A DNA stretch of 64,000 nucleotides from a virus (IMGVR_UViG_3300020442_000007:101480-165479); one strand, 5' to 3'. Shown: positions 27,421 to 44,576, counted from the first letter of the stretch. Numbers and translations: made by a program. The notes: generated by a model from the sequence alone, not told the origin.

Positions 27421-28254
27421 ATGAAAAAAATAAACTACTTAAACAATAAGGATATATTATCCGAAATACATAAGTCAAAAAGCACCTTTAGTAGCTTTAC
27501 TGACGATACTTTCAGTCAATATGACATAATTTTACCAAGTTTGGATAGAATTAACATAAGAACTATTGCAGAGGCTAAACGAAATAAAGCTAAAAGACTT
27601 GGATTACAAGACTATGATAACAAAAAAGAACAAGGAATAAAGGTTAAATTAGCTGATTGTGAGGTTGATTATAGGAAAATTACCAAACAAGAACTAATTT
27701 TTAGAATAATGACATTTGATCATATTCCAGAAGAAAAAGGCAGAAAGAAAAATCCTAAAACTATTGCAGATACAAAAGTAAAGTTAAATTTTCCTCCATT
27801 CCAGCACTACAAATTTAACGATAAAGATGAGTTAATTTGTGTAGGAAAAAGCCATTGGGTAGGTGGTATGGAAAATGGTTATTTTTCAAAGACAGATGGA
27901 CAAGCTACTCCAAAATTAGCAAATATGTGGATTAAGCTATGTGAAAGATACGCTACAAGAGGAAATGTTAGAGGATATACATACAATGATGAAATGAAAG
28001 GCCAAGCTATTTTACAATTAGCACAGATTGGTTTGCAATTTGATGAATCAAAATCAAATAACCCTTTTGCATACTATACTGCGGCTGTAACAAACAGCTT
28101 TGTTCGTGTGATTAATTTAGAAAAGCGAAATCAAAATATAAGAGACGATATTTTGGAACAAAATGGTATGGATCCTAGTTACACAAGACAACATGCAGGT
28201 GAATGGGAAAGTTATATGAAAAGAGAAGCTGAACATAGAGCTAAACAAAACTAA
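27421..28254 (+). CDS. gp55: Late-transcription sigma factor, gp55-like
   Basis: NYLNNKD N-terminus and RGYTYNDEMKGQAILQL...FDESKSNNPFAYYT...NSFVRVINLEKR match gp55; precedes gp47/gp46 as in T4. Confidence 0.88.
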   Translation: MKKINYLNNKDILSEIHKSKSTFSSFTDDTFSQYDIILPSLDRINIRTIAEAKRNKAKRLGLQDYDNKKEQGIKVKLADCEVDYRKITKQELIFRIMTFDHIPEEKGRKKNPKTIADTKVKLNFPPFQHYKFNDKDELICVGKSHWVGGMENGYFSKTDGQATPKLANMWIKLCERYATRGNVRGYTYNDEMKGQAILQLAQIGLQFDESKSNNPFAYYTAAVTNSFVRVINLEKRNQNIRDDILEQNGMDPSYTRQHAGEWESYMKREAEHRAKQN

Positions 28255-28257
28255 CTC

Positions 28258-28286
28258 TTGACATTCTTTCAATAAGACTTTATAAT
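28258..28286 (+). promoter_or_regulatory. Consensus sigma70 promoter for gp47-gp46
   Basis: TTGACA-17 bp-TATAAT perfect match, followed by an AAGGAG RBS. Confidence 0.9.
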
Positions 28287-28312
28287 AACACAAGAAATAC
28301 AAGGAGTAATGT

Positions 28313-29323
28313 TTGTTTAAGAAAGCGGCAGTTTTTACTGATATCCATCTGGGATTAAAAGGTAATTCAAAAGTACATAATGATGATTGTGAACAATTTG
28401 TAGATTGGTTTATCCAAAATGCAAAAGATAACAACTGTGAAACAGGAATTTTTTGTGGTGATTGGCACCACAACAGAAATAGTTTAAACTTAACTACTAT
28501 GGATGCTACTATCCGTAGTATGGAAAAGTTAGGTAAAGCATTTGAACAATTTTTCTTTTTTGATGGTAATCATGATTTATATTACAAAGACAAAAGAGAC
28601 GTAAATTCAACAGCATTTGCAAAACATATTCCTGGTATAACTTTTATTGATGAAATAACAACCAAAGAAGATGTAACCTTAGTTCCTTGGCTTGTAGGAG
28701 ACGAATGGAAAAAAATTAAAGACATAAAAAGCAAGTACATGTTTGGACATTTTGAATTACCTAGCTTCTATATGAATGCAATGGTACAGATGCCAGACAC
28801 AGGAGAACTAAAAGCAGAACATTTTAAACATCAAGAATATGTTTTCAGTGGTCATTTTCATAAAAGACAACAACAAGGAAAAATACACTATATTGGTAAT
28901 GCATTTCCACACAATTATGCAGATGCCTGGGACGACAAACGTGGTATGATGATTCTTGATCGTGAAAACAATAAAGAACCTGCATACATTAACTGGGACG
29001 ACTGTCCAAAGTACAGAACAACTACCTTAAGTAAACTATTAGATCCTAAACAAGACATTATTAAAAGCAAAATGTATCTAAGAGTAACCATTGATGTTCC
29101 TATTAGCTATGAAGAAGCAAGTTTTATTAAAGAAACATTTATAAACCAACACAAATGTAGAGAAATTTCCTTAATACCACAAAAACAAATAGAAGAAATA
29201 TCAACTGAATTAGATATTCAACAATTTGAATCAGTTGACCAAATTGTTGCCGGTGAAATAGCCGCAATAGACTCAGATAACTTTAACAAAAAGACACTTA
29301 TGGACATATATAACGACCTATGA
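28313..29323 (+). CDS. gp47: Recombination nuclease, Mre11/SbcD-like
   Basis: Metallophosphoesterase motifs DIH, GD, GNHD, GHFE, SGHFH. TTG start. Confidence 0.93.
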   Translation: MFKKAAVFTDIHLGLKGNSKVHNDDCEQFVDWFIQNAKDNNCETGIFCGDWHHNRNSLNLTTMDATIRSMEKLGKAFEQFFFFDGNHDLYYKDKRDVNSTAFAKHIPGITFIDEITTKEDVTLVPWLVGDEWKKIKDIKSKYMFGHFELPSFYMNAMVQMPDTGELKAEHFKHQEYVFSGHFHKRQQQGKIHYIGNAFPHNYADAWDDKRGMMILDRENNKEPAYINWDDCPKYRTTTLSKLLDPKQDIIKSKMYLRVTIDVPISYEEASFIKETFINQHKCREISLIPQKQIEEISTELDIQQFESVDQIVAGEIAAIDSDNFNKKTLMDIYNDL

Positions 29324-31092
29324 TAGAAATAAAAGATTTAACTGTAAAAAACTTCATGAGTGTGGGCAATCAAACCCAGGCTGTAGATTTTAATCAACAA
29401 CAACTTACTTTGGTACTTGGAGAAAACTTAGATCAAGGTGGTGATGATAGTGGTTCACGTAACGGAACTGGCAAAACTACTATTATCAACGCATTGAGCT
29501 ATGCTCTGTACGGACAAGCACTAACAAATATCAGAAGAAACAATTTAATTAACAAAACTAACAGCAAAGGTATGTTAGTTACACTTCATTTTGAAAAAAA
29601 TGGTGTAGATTATAGAATTGAAAGAGGACGCAGTCCAAACTTACTTAAATTTTATATTAATAACGAAGAACAAGAAATGGTTGACGAGTCTCAAGGAGAT
29701 TCTCGTAAAACACAAGAGTATATTAATGATTTATTAGACATGAGTCATGATATGTTCAAACATATTGTTGCACTTAACACATATACAGAACCATTCCTTG
29801 CTATGAAGCAAAATGATCAACGAGCGATTATAGAACAGTTACTTGGTATAACTATATTATCTGAAAAAGCAGAGTCGTTAAAAGAACAAATCAAAAAAAC
29901 AAAAGAATTAATTACAGAAGAAACGCTAAAAATAGAAGCAATCCAAACTGCTAATGAAAAAATTAATTCAACAATTGAAAATTTACAAGGAACCCAAAGA
30001 GCTTGGTTAGCAAAAAAAGAACAAGACCTTGCAAAACTACAAAGCAGTATAGAAGAACTAGAACACTTAGATATTGACAACGAATTAGAATTTCATGAAA
30101 GGTTGTCAAAATGGAACGAACACAATAACGAAATAACGGCTCTTAAAAAAGAATTAGGAACACTAGAGCCAGCACTACAACGTGCAGAAAAGTCTGTAGA
30201 TAAAGTTGTTAAAGACATCGCAGATTTAGACAATGCTGTTTGTTATACTTGTGGTCAATCATTACATGCTGACAAAAAAGATGAAATACTCAGCAAAAAA
30301 AATAAAGAACTAGAAGATGCAAAAGCGTATGCAGAAGAAATAAAATCTAAATGTACTGATGTAATGACATCTTTAGACAAAATTGGAGATATAAATGGTC
30401 GGCCAGATACATTTTATGAAACTGCAAAAGAAGCATATGAACACAGACAGAATGTTGAAACACTCAAACAATCTTTTACAAGTAGACAAGAAGAAATTGA
30501 TCCTTATCAACAGCAAATTGATGAATTAAACAATAGTGCTATACAAGAAATCAATTGGGAACCAGTAAATAGGCTTGATAACTTTAAGGAACATCAAGAA
30601 TTTTTGTTAAAACTACTAACAAACAAAGACAGTTTTATTCGTAAAAAAATTATTGATCAAAATTTAGCATATCTAAATAATAGATTAACTTATTTCTTAG
30701 ATAAACTTGGTCTTCCGCATCAAGTTGTGTTCCAAAATGACTTAACTGTAGAAATTACACAATTAGGACAAGATTTAGACTTTGATAATTTGAGTAGAGG
30801 TGAAAGAAACAGATTAATATTAGGTATGAGCTTTGCTTTCCGTGATGTTTGGGAAAGTTTATATCAAAAAATCAACTTATTGTTTATAGATGAGTTGATT
30901 GATAGCGGTATGGATACTGCTGGTGTTGAAGGATCGCTTGCAGTACTGAAAAAAATGGGTCGTGAGGGTGATAAAAATGTATATCTCATATCTCACAAGG
31001 ATGAACTTGTTGGTCGTGTGAATCATGTACTAAAAGTTGTAAAAGAAAATGGCTTTACAAGCTATGAAAATGATATTGAAATAGTAGAATAG
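29320..31092 (+). CDS. gp46: Recombination ATPase, Rad50/SbcC-like
   Basis: KNFMSVGN, Walker A NGTGKTT, coiled coil with CYTC zinc hook, LSRGE signature, LFIDE Walker B, ISH. Confidence 0.95.
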   Translation: MIEIKDLTVKNFMSVGNQTQAVDFNQQQLTLVLGENLDQGGDDSGSRNGTGKTTIINALSYALYGQALTNIRRNNLINKTNSKGMLVTLHFEKNGVDYRIERGRSPNLLKFYINNEEQEMVDESQGDSRKTQEYINDLLDMSHDMFKHIVALNTYTEPFLAMKQNDQRAIIEQLLGITILSEKAESLKEQIKKTKELITEETLKIEAIQTANEKINSTIENLQGTQRAWLAKKEQDLAKLQSSIEELEHLDIDNELEFHERLSKWNEHNNEITALKKELGTLEPALQRAEKSVDKVVKDIADLDNAVCYTCGQSLHADKKDEILSKKNKELEDAKAYAEEIKSKCTDVMTSLDKIGDINGRPDTFYETAKEAYEHRQNVETLKQSFTSRQEEIDPYQQQIDELNNSAIQEINWEPVNRLDNFKEHQEFLLKLLTNKDSFIRKKIIDQNLAYLNNRLTYFLDKLGLPHQVVFQNDLTVEITQLGQDLDFDNLSRGERNRLILGMSFAFRDVWESLYQKINLLFIDELIDSGMDTAGVEGSLAVLKKMGREGDKNVYLISHKDELVGRVNHVLKVVKENGFTSYENDIEIVE

Positions 31093-31100
31093 GTGTTAAT

Positions 31101-31349
31101 ATGTCTGATGATGTGCATGATAAACTTACAAAAGCATATTTAGAATACTATAAAGCAAATGAAGCATTTGAAGCAAGACGCTCACATAGAACTCATGCAA
31201 GTAGCAGGCGTTGGTTACGCGAAATAAGATCTCTGGCTAAAGAACGTATGGAAGAAATACATCATACATTTAAAGCCAAGAAAGACCAGCAGGATAACGA
31301 CCTCCAGGTAAGTACAGAATGCAATGGACTTACCGAGGAGACAAAGTAG
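31101..31349 (+). CDS. Small basic helical protein, possibly Hc1 (histone H1-like) family
   Basis: 82 aa; the pattern YLEYYKANEAFE....ASSRRWLREIRSLAKERMEEI resembles phage Hc1-like helical hairpins (from recall). Confidence 0.5.
   Translation: MSDDVHDKLTKAYLEYYKANEAFEARRSHRTHASSRRWLREIRSLAKERMEEIHHTFKAKKDQQDNDLQVSTECNGLTEETK
31309..31314 (+). promoter_or_regulatory. Possible late promoter variant TAAGTA for the GIY-YIG gene and downstream RNA
   Basis: gTAAGTAcagaATG: one mismatch to TAAATA, 4 nt before an ATG that has no SD. Confidence 0.4.
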
Positions 31350-31753
31350 AAGAATTACCAGAAGATTGCGAAGGATTTGTATATCTAATAACCAATCTAA
31401 CTAATAATCGGAAGTACATAGGCAAAAAATTAGCAAAATTTAAGACAAGTAAGCCACCACTCAAAGGCAAAGTTAATAAAAGGCGCGGATATAAAGAAAG
31501 TGATTGGAGAGACTATTGGGGATCTTCAGATCATTTGAATGCAGACGTGCTAAAACTAGGCAAAGACAACTTTACTAGAGAAATTTTACATTATTGTCCA
31601 AGCAGAGGCGTATTAAGTTACATAGAGGCAAAGGAACAGTTTGATCGTAGAGTACTTGAAACCGATGAATACTACAACGGAATCATTAATGTACGAGTAG
31701 GCAGTTCAAAAATCTTAAAAGAACATCTCAAAAACACTTTAGGCAAGCTATAG
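31319..31753 (+). CDS. Stand-alone GIY-YIG nuclease (SegE-like catalytic domain only)
   Basis: GFVYLITNLTNNRKYIGKK, YWGSS, FTREIL, conserved E in YIEAKEQF and YYN. 144 aa with no appended DNA-binding domain. Confidence 0.88.
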   Translation: MQWTYRGDKVEELPEDCEGFVYLITNLTNNRKYIGKKLAKFKTSKPPLKGKVNKRRGYKESDWRDYWGSSDHLNADVLKLGKDNFTREILHYCPSRGVLSYIEAKEQFDRRVLETDEYYNGIINVRVGSSKILKEHLKNTLGKL

Positions 31754-31756
31754 AAC

Positions 31757-32051
31757 ATTGTTTGATCGAGGAAGCTCGATTCACCTTGAGGACATATGAC
31801 CTATGTTCAGATTCTGGTGTCGTTCAACAGGCTGTATGCTACAAAAACCCCTTAGCAAAGGAACGAAGCAGGGGATATAATACAGGATACTTGCATTTTC
31901 CGCAAGTTTTATGTATTAGATGTCGACGTAGGTTGGGAAAGGTCAGAGCCCAGTAGCAAAGTCAAATACCTACTTCCGGTCTCGGCTGTGCGAACTCACA
32001 TGAAGGCAGAGATAGATGGAACCGCTGTTAGGTTCCGTCTGACTGAACAAT
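31757..32051 (+). ncRNA. Unclassified ~295-nt structured RNA downstream of the GIY-YIG gene
   Basis: GC-richer gap with a closing stem ATTGTTTG(31757)/TGAACAAT(32051). Stems GGACATA/TATGTTC, TCGTTC/GAACGA, TAATACA..ACTTGC/GCAAGT..TGTATTA, GTAGGT/ACCTAC, TGGG/CCCA, TGTG/CACA, AGATGGAACC/GGTTCCGTCT. Loop-loop pairing TGACCT(31797)/AGGTCA(31940). G-U pairs favour a plus-strand RNA. Confidence 0.75.
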
Positions 32052-32058
32052 CTACATG

Positions 32059-32092
32059 AAGCAATTACAATTTACTTCGTAAATTGCTTTTT
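32059..32092 (+). terminator. Probable intrinsic terminator after the ncRNA
   Basis: CAATTTAC-TTC-GTAAATTG hairpin followed by CTTTTT. Confidence 0.55.
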
Positions 32093-32187
32093 AATATCAT
32101 GTTTGAGCGATAGCGAAAACAAAATGAGCTTTAGCTCATTTCTTAACAATATACATTATCCAATGTGTACAATCGTCGTGTGGATCA

Positions 32188-32370
32188 TCAGTGTAAATCA
32201 GGATCTCTTCCTAAACCTTTAACAGTACTAACTTCGAACGATTCATATCGTAGTTCGAGATGTGGTTTGACGTCACGCATTGTTTGAATATATTGATCTG
32301 CTTCTTCAATAGTATTAACAATGTCTAATTCGTTATCAAGATTGTCTAATATTCTATATTTTGTAATCAT
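32188..32370 (-). CDS. Small hypothetical protein (60 aa)
   Basis: ORF ending GLGRDPDLH, with TAAATA (32378-32383, minus strand) 7 nt upstream. Confidence 0.65.
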   Translation of the reverse strand: MITKYRILDNLDNELDIVNTIEEADQYIQTMRDVKPHLELRYESFEVSTVKGLGRDPDLH

Positions 32371-44348: not shown

Positions 44349-44576
44349 TAAAATAAGCAACAAGAGAGTAATTAACTTTTGTTTATTAGTGCAAGGAAGA
44401 GGCGTTTACCAGAGCGTCGAACTTGACTAATTAGGGGTGGTACCCAGGCTTGGTAGTAGAAATACGCTGAGTCACATCGCTCTACCGAGCGGAATTAGGT
44501 TCCCTGGTTATCAGAATGGCATCTGTGGCGAGGGGTTGGAGGTATAACCGAGTCCTCCCTAATATTGCTTATTTTA
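44349..44576 (+). ncRNA. Stand-alone ~230-nt structured RNA, possibly of the manA motif class
   Basis: Perfect 12-bp terminal stem TAAAATAAGCAA/TTGCTTATTTTA. Internal stems TTAGT.CAAG/CTTGACTAA, GGCGTTT/GAGCGTC, GTA-GAAA-TAC, CGCTC/GAGCG, GGAGG/CCTCC. Own promoter and terminator; no ORF. The manA assignment is from recollection only. Confidence 0.82.

What the first reader, a model, noticed from the sequence alone, without database searches (positions are those of the whole stretch)
31309..32092. Minimal GIY-YIG nuclease followed directly by a ~300-nt closed, pseudoknotted RNA: candidate nuclease-RNA system
Seen: the RNA-like region begins 4 nt after the nuclease stop and is closed by a terminal stem (31757/32051). 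It holds at least seven internal helices with G-U pairs and a long-range loop pairing (TGACCT 31797 / AGGTCA 31940), and ends at a hairpin plus T run. No separate promoter is evident, so it seems co-transcribed from the TAAGTA just before the nuclease ATG. Known: GIY-YIG homing nucleases such as I-TevI and Seg proteins carry extra DNA-binding domains. This 144-aa protein has only the catalytic domain plus a basic loop (KPPLKGKVNKRRG). Nuclease-plus-adjacent-RNA layouts are known for HNH/RuvC enzymes (HEARO, OMEGA); I know of none for GIY-YIG. Inference: the RNA may be a scaffold, guide or substrate forming an RNP with the nuclease.
Basis: partly seen in the sequence, partly recalled or inferred. 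Interest (0 to 1): 0.88.

Follow-up and report, generated by a model that had tools for sequence, protein, structure and literature searches.

The report
Twin-box phage RNA behind GIY-YIG nuclease
The gene-free stretch after a small DNA-cutting-enzyme gene of this uncultured marine T4-related phage encodes a real, knotted non-coding RNA from an uncatalogued family. The RNA carries the same 7-letter word twice, nothing shows that it guides the enzyme, and its job is unknown.

Summary
A 144-aa GIY-YIG nuclease gene (31319-31753) is followed at once by a conserved structured RNA (about 31751-32061, with conserved hairpins to about 32121). On 20 relatives, 84.6% of cells pair against 34-42% when partners are slid, and 26 pairs show compensatory changes. 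No Rfam family matches.

Linkage is strong. 109 of 111 loci found through the RNA alone have the nuclease gene just upstream. It is not obligatory, because each also occurs without the other.

The nuclease gene is 88% identical in a phage whose gp46 is only 59% identical and whose RNA is a different sub-type. It therefore looks like a mobile homing-type gene riding beside an RNA gene, not a guided enzyme.

The oddest feature is two 7-nt boxes (31998-32004 and 32054-32060). They are identical to each other in nearly all members but differ between members. I found no partner in cis or in this genome.

This scan has found the same family many times before on other DNA. Earlier notes linked it to Polynucleobacter-1; my tests found no such match here.

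The parts
31101..31349 (+). Context: 82-aa basic ORF ('c0') that follows gp46. It is a resident gene, not part of the element.
   Evidence: It precedes the nuclease gene in 109 of about 130 loci. It also follows gp46 where the nuclease lies elsewhere (L050). No Pfam or PHROG family matches.
31302..31340 (+). Hairpin enclosing the nuclease start codon (31307-13 pairs with 31328-34; outer 31302-05 with 31337-40).
   Evidence: Folding energy is -16.8 kcal/mol with z -5.2 in the window, and is weaker in relatives. The octamer 31307-14 is conserved 4-6 nt before the ATG in most relatives. It occurs before only this one gene in the 165-kb record.
31319..31753 (+). GIY-YIG nuclease gene, 144 aa, catalytic domain only (SegE / I-TevI type; phrog_447).
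   Evidence: At least 580 relatives were found in IMG/VR and 789 phage records match.
31751..32061 (+). Core of the twin-box RNA: helices, two crossing pairings, and the variable hairpin 31878-31918.
   Evidence: Conserved behind nuclease homologues. Covariation is shown. No Rfam match.
31753..31825 (+). 5' domain: helix 31753-56 / 31822-25, hairpin 31764-81, and hairpin 31782-31819 (inner stem 31790-96 / 31802-08).
   Evidence: All are 100% paired with compensatory changes, except the inner stem (70% paired, 6 pairs compensated).
31830..31973 (+). Pseudoknot: 31837-42 / 31953-58 (plus 31830-33 / 31960-63) crosses 31928-33 / 31968-73. An invariant hairpin lies at 31934-52.
   Evidence: The first pairing has quite different but complementary sequences in many relatives. 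The second has two compensatory events, in L008 and L129.
31998..32004 (+). Twin box 1. Its first three bases lie in hairpin 31987-90 / 31997-32000.
   Evidence: It is identical to box 2 at each of the 7 positions in 118-121 of 121 distinct RNAs.
32015..32039 (+). Hairpin between the two boxes.
   Evidence: 97.8% of cells are paired. A hairpin sits at this place in all three RNA sub-types.
32054..32060 (+). Twin box 2, always preceded by AUCU.
32068..32092 (+). Hairpin with a CUUCG-type loop, followed by a T run.
   Evidence: The loop does not change with the box.
32100..32121 (+). Distal hairpin motif: covarying outer stem, tandem G.A pairs and a GNNA loop.
   Evidence: It lies 39-108 nt after box 2 in 115 of 136 distinct loci. 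It is the only copy in the record.
32122..32141 (.). Bidirectional terminator hairpin shared with the convergent 60-aa ORF (32188-32370, minus strand).

Best explanation
The stretch 31751 to about 32121 is a gene for a stable, pseudoknotted non-coding RNA. It belongs to an uncatalogued family (the 'twin-box RNA') that is common in uncultured aquatic T4-related phages.

The gene in front of it encodes a free-standing, catalytic-domain-only GIY-YIG homing-type endonuclease. Alleles of that gene are exchanged between phages by gene conversion. In this phage clade it has become fixed directly 5' of the RNA gene, much as T4 segB sits among the tRNA and stable-RNA genes.

In this window the RNA is probably made as the 3' part of the nuclease transcript (inferred). 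In one other sub-type it has its own promoter.

The RNA most likely acts on its own. It presents two identical, largely single-stranded 7-nt boxes that read a nucleic-acid partner outside the element by base pairing (inferred; the partner is unknown). The nuclease does not need the RNA to find its DNA target.
For: - The RNA is real: covariation and conservation.
- The nuclease is independent of the RNA. Melnitz has an 80%-identical gene with no RNA behind it. The gene stands alone at other loci (L034, L036, L038, L050, L058, L075). The family occurs without the RNA in P-SSM2, S-RSM4 and phiM12.
- The RNA is independent of the nuclease. L120, L129 and three more contigs carry it in a different phage type near a small-terminase gene.
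- The nuclease gene moves horizontally. Against L010, gp46 is 59% identical but the nuclease is 88% identical. Against L262 and L265, gp46 is 86% but the nuclease is 74-75%. Against the contig of L003, gp46 is 82% and the nuclease 90%.
- One nuclease type serves RNAs of different architecture. Sub-types B (about 600 nt) and C cannot be aligned with this RNA beyond a 5' module.
- Sub-type B has a TTGACA-N17-TATAAT-like promoter overlapping the nuclease stop codon.
- The boxes behave like a code. Sixteen words were seen, with at least 27 changes on the nuclease tree, and both boxes always change together.
Against: - In this clade the pair is never separated. 109 of 111 RNA-first loci have the nuclease within 900 nt upstream.
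- In a gp46-first sample, none of the 50 loci with enough sequence lacked the nuclease gene. 45 have the nuclease gene and RNA within 1.5 kb of gp46; in the other five the nuclease gene lies further downstream, four of them behind extra inserted genes. In L326 the RNA was found beside it; in L265, L267, L303 and L315 the stretch examined ended before an RNA could be seen.
- The junction is only 0-10 nt, and this window shows no promoter for the RNA.
- A typical selfish homing gene would be sporadic; this one is fixed in the clade.
- The partner of the boxes has not been found, so trans-acting base pairing is only the most natural reading.
- The test of co-evolution between nuclease residues and box words had no power: one supported independent pair.
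Confidence: 0.45

Rival explanations
1. Nuclease-RNA particle. The RNA binds the domain-poor nuclease as a scaffold or guide, and the two identical boxes pair with DNA to place two nuclease molecules for a double-strand cut.
For: - Adjacency is very tight and near-universal in this clade.
- A freely variable 7-nt word sits in a conserved scaffold and is present twice.
- The nuclease lacks a DNA-binding domain and has a conserved basic hairpin at residues 40-60.
Against: - Close homologues work without any RNA nearby, and the RNA exists without the nuclease.
- The protein is 83-88% identical across RNA sub-types that share little scaffold.
- Seven nucleotides is too short for a specific guide.
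- No inverted or direct complement of the box is enriched in the 165-kb record.
- T4 endonuclease II shows that a 136-aa GIY-YIG enzyme can bind DNA without an extra domain (own knowledge).
Confidence: 0.15
2. Cis-acting 3' untranslated region. The structure belongs to the nuclease mRNA and controls its stability, 3' end formation or translation, so that a toxic enzyme is made at the right time.
For: - The RNA starts at the stop codon, and no promoter is seen in this window.
- The start codon is also buried in a hairpin.
- T4 homing-endonuclease genes are known to be held in check by RNA structure (own knowledge).
Against: - 300-600 nt with several pseudoknots is far more than such control needs.
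- Sub-type B has its own promoter after the nuclease stop.
- The RNA occurs behind an unrelated small ORF in L129.
- Close nuclease homologues do without it.
- It does not explain two boxes that change together.
Confidence: 0.15
3. Ribozyme or intron relic. The RNA is a self-cleaving or self-splicing element, and the two boxes are the two identical reaction sites.
For: - It is a complex pseudoknotted fold with invariant single-stranded segments.
- Identical words sit at two sites about 56 nt apart.
- Phage homing endonucleases often live in group I introns (own knowledge).
Against: - No match to any group I, group II or small ribozyme model, even at E 10.
- There are no flanking exons; the element ends at a terminator next to a convergent gene.
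- No internal guide strand complementary to the boxes exists.
Confidence: 0.07
4. The conservation is not RNA-level. On this view the stretch is a decayed DNA-binding domain of the nuclease, a small protein gene, or a DNA site.
For: - A 64-aa TTG ORF lies at 31762-31956.
- Seg proteins normally have a C-terminal domain (own knowledge).
Against: - Compensatory base changes occur in many helices.
- Hairpins of varying length carry unrelated sequences, and indels are not in threes.
- The spacing between the boxes shows no three-base periodicity.
Confidence: 0.02

Closest known systems
T4 SegB and other free-standing Seg / I-TevI-type GIY-YIG homing endonucleases (segB lies in the T4 tRNA and stable-RNA gene cluster; own knowledge)
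   Same: - It has the GIY-YIG catalytic domain, matches the Pfam SegE family and has an I-TevI-like fold.
- It is a free-standing gene in a T4-related phage, next to a structured-RNA gene.
- Its allele distribution is incongruent with core genes.
   Different: - It has no DNA-binding domain.
- It is fixed rather than sporadic in this clade.
- The neighbouring RNA is not a tRNA but a 310-390-nt pseudoknotted RNA of unknown role.
- Homing has not been shown.
HEARO / IscB and TnpB OMEGA systems (nuclease gene plus adjacent guide RNA)
   Same: A nuclease gene has a large structured RNA directly beside it, and that RNA contains a short variable segment.
   Different: - The nuclease class is different (GIY-YIG, not RuvC/HNH).
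- The pair is not obligatory.
- The variable segment is 7 nt and duplicated, not a terminal guide of 16 nt or more.
- No target match and no transposon ends were found.
Large orphan structured RNAs of phages and prophages (GOLLD RF01998, ROOL RF03087)
   Same: It is a large, heavily structured RNA of unknown function carried by phages, known only from comparative analysis.
   Different: No sequence or structure match. It is smaller, and twin identical boxes have not been described for those RNAs as far as I know.
Polynucleobacter-1 RNA motif (RF01718; PMC2864571), named by earlier reports of this scan
   Same: It comes from aquatic metagenomes. Earlier notes say that freshwater relatives of this RNA begin with that motif.
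   Different: No RF01718 match was found in this window at E 10, in 15 related loci at E 1, in 5 whole related records beyond one weak off-locus hit, or in 9 further contigs at E 0.01.
Template-flanking repeats of telomerase RNA and of the DRT2 reverse-transcriptase ncRNA (own knowledge)
   Same: These are the only precedent I know for two short segments of one RNA that must stay identical, not complementary, while differing between lineages.
   Different: No reverse transcriptase gene lies nearby. The unit length varies from 49 to 68 nt with no reading frame. This is purely an analogy.

Membership tests
GIY-YIG nuclease, SegE-like (PF19835 / phrog_447) | Profile match above the curated cut-off | tested here: met
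   PF19835 scores 118.8 bits against a cut-off of 25, over residues 3-123. phrog_447 matches at E 5.5e-37 over positions 9-144 of 148.
GIY-YIG nuclease, SegE-like (PF19835 / phrog_447) | GIY-YIG fold and conserved catalytic-type residues | tested here: met
   The model has pLDDT 84.8. The top three PDB matches are the I-TevI catalytic domain (probability 0.87, TM 0.61-0.64 by target) but with weak E-values of 0.2-0.3. Invariant residues across 28 homologues include Y22, Y33, G35, R55, R56, E103 and N120. Their mapping onto I-TevI residues was not done.
Homing endonuclease (Seg / I-TevI type) | Separate DNA-binding domain joined to the catalytic domain | tested here: not met
   The protein is 144 aa, and only about 20 residues lie beyond the catalytic domain. 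This holds for the whole family.
Homing endonuclease (Seg / I-TevI type) | Mobile gene: several insertion sites and a history incongruent with core genes | tested here: met
   There are at least three contexts. Identity to gp46 and to the nuclease is uncorrelated.
Homing endonuclease (Seg / I-TevI type) | Sporadic presence with empty sites in close relatives | tested here: not met
   No empty site was found among 50 gp46-first loci with enough sequence.
Homing endonuclease (Seg / I-TevI type) | Site-specific cleavage of cassette-free DNA | not testable with these tools
   This needs an enzyme assay.
RNA-guided nuclease system (OMEGA / HEARO-like) | Nuclease and RNA always co-occur | tested here: not met
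   Each occurs alone, although they are joined in 109 of 111 RNA-first loci.
RNA-guided nuclease system (OMEGA / HEARO-like) | Variable guide segment that matches a target | tested here: inconclusive
   Variable twin boxes exist. No complement was found in cis or in the 165-kb record, which is about 47% complete. Host and rival-phage DNA could not be searched.
Polynucleobacter-1 RNA (RF01718) | Covariance-model match at or near the gathering score | tested here: not met
Group I intron / small self-cleaving ribozymes | Covariance-model match and flanking exons or cleavage-site architecture | tested here: not met
   No match at E 10. There is no downstream exon.
Twin-box RNA (this scan's working name; uncatalogued) | CU-N plus a 7-mer, a hairpin, then AUCU plus the same 7-mer 45-84 nt on, followed by a hairpin | tested here: met
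   In the window these lie at 31995-32004 and 32050-32060. The signature is present in 63 of 71 nuclease-first loci and in 0 of 84 control stretches.

The most novel reading that the evidence does not exclude
The two identical 7-nt boxes are a programmable recognition code. The RNA, alone or together with the adjacent GIY-YIG enzyme, would use them to seize two copies of a complementary sequence in a rival phage, the host or its own replicating DNA. That would make this a new kind of RNA-directed targeting or templating device spread through marine T4-related phages.
Probability: 0.12. Interest if true: 0.9.

Novelty: new variant of a known kind. Interest (0 to 1): 0.6.

Why it matters
Hundreds of abundant, uncultured ocean phages keep a 300-600-nt knotted RNA that no catalogue holds. 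Large conserved RNAs of this complexity have repeatedly turned out to be ribozymes, riboswitches or parts of nucleic-acid-targeting machines.

The rule that two short words must stay identical to each other while changing between phages has very few precedents; template-realignment repeats are the only ones I know. It points to a reader that can be found by experiment.

The finding also gives a clean case of a domain-poor GIY-YIG nuclease gene that is fixed in a clade yet shuffled between phages. That bears on how homing genes persist.

Tried and rejected
- Rfam at gathering and at E 10 on the window and on 29 related loci or records: nothing, including RF01718.
- tRNA/tmRNA scan: none.
- blastn of three RNA sub-types against 50,697 cultured-phage records: no match, so no cultured model phage was found.
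- Boxes pairing with each other, as RNAalifold proposed: rejected, because the AUAAA and GAUG variants would break that helix.
- Complement of the box in cis:
  - no exact 7-8-mer within 1.3 kb;
  - no third column with comparable mutual information;
  - with G-U allowed, 81 own-word sites against 67 +/- 8 for shuffled words;
  - a local cluster about 50 nt upstream of box 1 is an insertion absent from this window.
- Loop of the hairpin after box 2 as partner: it stays CUUCG whatever the box.
- Small ORF between the boxes: the spacing of 49-68 nt has no three-base bias and stops are frequent.
- Excess copies, complements, inverted pairs or start-codon targets of the box in the 165-kb record: none. 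One 12-mer identical to AUCU plus box lies inside a coding region outside the window and is probably chance.
- GGTAAGTA as a general promoter of this phage: only 5 copies in the record, and only this one precedes a gene.
- Co-evolution of nuclease residues with box words: only one supported independent pair, so the test had no power.
- Pattern scan of 596 Gb of prokaryote genomes: 3 true hits, all with the nuclease gene on contigs binned into MAGs, which I take to be phage DNA (not checked).
- Literature search: no description of this RNA.
Profile HMMs were used instead.

Full report
**Setting.** The window is the last 64 kb of a 165-kb IMG/VR virus record that CheckV rates at about 47% complete. 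The genes before the finding are a gp55-like ORF, gp47 (28313-29323), gp46 (29320-31092) and an 82-aa basic ORF that I call c0 (31101-31349). The nearest cultured gp46 is that of the Pseudomonas jumbo phage PA5oct, at 49% identity. PA5oct has the same gp55-47-46 order but nothing behind gp46.

**The protein.**
- The ORF 31319-31753 encodes 144 aa.
- It matches Pfam PF19835 (SegE GIY-YIG domain) at 2e-34 over residues 3-123. It matches phrog_447, a 148-position family, over its full length.
- An AlphaFold model built on 28 homologues has pLDDT 84.8. Its three best PDB matches are the I-TevI catalytic domain, although the E-values are weak.
The basic stretch lies in a beta-hairpin insert (residues 40-60) that is invariant in the family.
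- This compact form is the norm for the family. At least 580 relatives in IMG/VR are all about 140 aa, and 789 cultured-phage records match. The missing DNA-binding domain is therefore not a peculiarity that calls for an RNA partner.

**The RNA is real.**
- The 342 nt after the stop codon are conserved behind most close nuclease homologues, at 70-86% identity.
- The alignments show conserved blocks separated by hairpins of unrelated sequence and varying length. Indels are not in threes.
- RNAalifold found 19 pairs with compensatory changes in 13 sequences.
- I wrote out a structure with crossing helices and counted it on 20 sequences. 84.6% of cells pair against 34-42% when the 3' partners are slid. 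26 of 89 pairs, and 97 cells, show changes on both sides, and no shuffle reached these values.
- Helices with direct support are 31753-56 / 31822-25, 31764-70 / 31775-81, 31782-85 / 31816-19, 31790-96 / 31802-08, 31848-49 / 31873-74 and the variable hairpin 31878-84 / 31912-18.
- The long-range pairing 31837-42 / 31953-58 has wholly different yet complementary sequences in many relatives.
- That pairing crosses 31928-33 / 31968-73, which has two independent compensatory events (L008 and L129). The RNA is therefore pseudoknotted.
- No Rfam family matches.

**The element is longer than reported.** After box 2 comes an A/U-rich hairpin with a T run (32068-92). Next is a second conserved hairpin (32100-21) with a covarying outer stem, tandem G.A pairs and a GNNA loop. 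This motif lies 39-108 nt after box 2 in 115 of 136 distinct loci, and it is the only copy in the record. A bidirectional terminator hairpin follows at 32122-41.

**Twin boxes.**
- Two 7-nt words, at 31998-32004 and 32054-60, are identical.
- In 121 distinct RNAs, each of the seven positions is the same in both boxes in 118-121 cases, while five of the positions vary between RNAs.
- RNAs of two other sub-types, found behind close nuclease homologues, carry quite different words, again twice.
- A strict signature (CU-N plus a word, then AUCU plus the same word 45-84 nt later) is present in 63 of 71 nuclease-first loci and in none of 84 control stretches. Two of the eight misses (L020 and L046) carry the RNA with slightly deviant flanks.
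- On the nuclease tree the word changes at least 27 times.
- I could not find what reads the boxes. The tests are listed under Tried and rejected. The boxes do not pair with each other. No complementary strand lies within -1100 to +200 nt. There is no coding signal, and there is no excess or complement in the 165-kb record.
- Changes at box positions 1-3 are all transitions that keep wobble pairing with 31987-89. Box 1 is therefore partly held in a small hairpin.

**Linkage.**
- RNA-first sample: a 17-nt invariant loop pattern returned 120 IMG/VR loci. Of the 111 with enough upstream DNA, 109 have the nuclease gene within 900 nt.
- The two exceptions, plus three relatives, belong to another phage type. 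There the RNA follows a sigma-70-like promoter and a 65-aa ORF, near a small-terminase-like gene.
- gp46-first sample: none of the 50 loci with at least 1.5 kb downstream lacks the nuclease gene.
  - 45 have the nuclease gene and RNA within 1.5 kb of gp46.
  - In four of the other five (L267, L303, L315, L326) extra genes are inserted before the nuclease gene. In the fifth (L265) the locus ends before an RNA could be seen.
  - In L326 the RNA was found beside the nuclease gene. In L267, L303 and L315 the examined stretch stopped short.
- The pair is therefore fixed in this clade. This also means that the many adjacent cases are not independent evidence of a functional bond.

**Evidence that the nuclease is a mobile neighbour.**
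- Close homologues stand without any RNA:
  - the cultured Methylophilales phage Melnitz, at 80% identity;
  - uncultured phages where the gene sits between a zinc-ribbon ORF and a 196-aa ORF;
  - L050;
  - cyanophages P-SSM2 and S-RSM4, and rhizobiophage phiM12.
- Nuclease identity does not follow core-gene identity:
  - against L010, gp46 is 59% identical and the nuclease 88%;
  - against L262 and L265, gp46 is 86% and the nuclease 74-75%;
  - against the contig of L003, gp46 is 82% and the nuclease 90%.
- L010 carries a roughly 600-nt sub-type B RNA that profile searches with this RNA do not detect. In that sub-type a strong promoter overlaps the nuclease stop codon.
- A protein that stays 83-88% identical while the RNA behind it changes architecture is hard to square with a co-evolving ribonucleoprotein. 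It fits allele exchange by homing-type gene conversion.

**Expression in this window.**
- No conserved promoter precedes the RNA. The one sigma-70-like match lies in the variable hairpin. Read-through from the nuclease gene is therefore likely, but this is an inference.
- In this window the octamer pairs with codons 4-6 and buries the AUG, at -16.8 kcal/mol and z -5.2. In relatives the hairpin is weak or absent.
- The octamer is not a general promoter of this phage.

**Verdict.** The interpretation as a nuclease-RNA particle is not excluded, but it is not favoured. My odds are:
- about 0.45 for an autonomous RNA with a mobile nuclease neighbour;
- 0.15 for a functional particle;
- 0.15 for a cis-acting 3' UTR;
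- 0.07 for a ribozyme or intron relic;
- the rest for something not considered here.

**Earlier reports.** This scan had already reported the same family on many other genomes. My results agree with those notes on the reality of the RNA, on the twin boxes and on the separability of RNA and nuclease. They do not reproduce the proposed kinship with Polynucleobacter-1 for this marine sub-type.

Noticed in passing
window 44359-44568 (+): manA RNA (RF01745), 60.8 bits against a gathering score of 55.2. It is a known cyanophage and marine cis-regulatory motif.
   Followed up: no
window 32100-32121 (+): Small conserved hairpin with a covarying outer stem, tandem G.A pairs and a GNNA loop. It is present after box 2 in 115 of 136 related loci and is the only copy in the 165-kb record. 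No Rfam family matches.
   Followed up: partly
window 31101-31349 (+): An 82-aa basic, helical ORF ('c0') follows gp46 in most relatives, independently of the nuclease and RNA. It has no Pfam or PHROG family and no homologue in cultured phages at E 1e-3.
   Followed up: partly
L010 2905-2945; also L019, L026 and L020: A TTGACA-N17-TATAAT-like promoter overlaps the stop codon of the nuclease gene and faces a roughly 600-nt twin-box RNA of another sub-type.
   Followed up: partly
L046 2950-3020: Three head-to-tail repeats of about 23 nt lie between the nuclease stop codon and the RNA.
   Followed up: no
L129 6203-6489 and L120 (RNA without nuclease): In a non-T4 phage type the RNA follows a perfect sigma-70 promoter and a 65-aa ORF with a WPPPKGW motif, upstream of a small-terminase-like gene.
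   Followed up: partly
G000 contig positions 28860-28871 (outside the window): A 12-mer identical to AUCU plus box 2 plus G lies inside a coding region. About 0.02 such matches are expected by chance. It was not seen as a pattern in other genomes.
   Followed up: partly
window 27421-31092 (+): The gp55-like, gp47 and gp46 genes are in the same order as in Pseudomonas jumbo phage PA5oct (gp46 49% identical). The record is probably half of a jumbo-phage genome of about 350 kb.
   Followed up: partly
RefSeq phage records (e.g. NC_006883.2 PSSM2_218, NC_013085.1 SRSM4_050) and phrog_447: Homologues of this GIY-YIG nuclease are annotated as 'NAD synthetase' in many phage records and in PHROGs. This is evidently an annotation error that has spread.
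   Followed up: no
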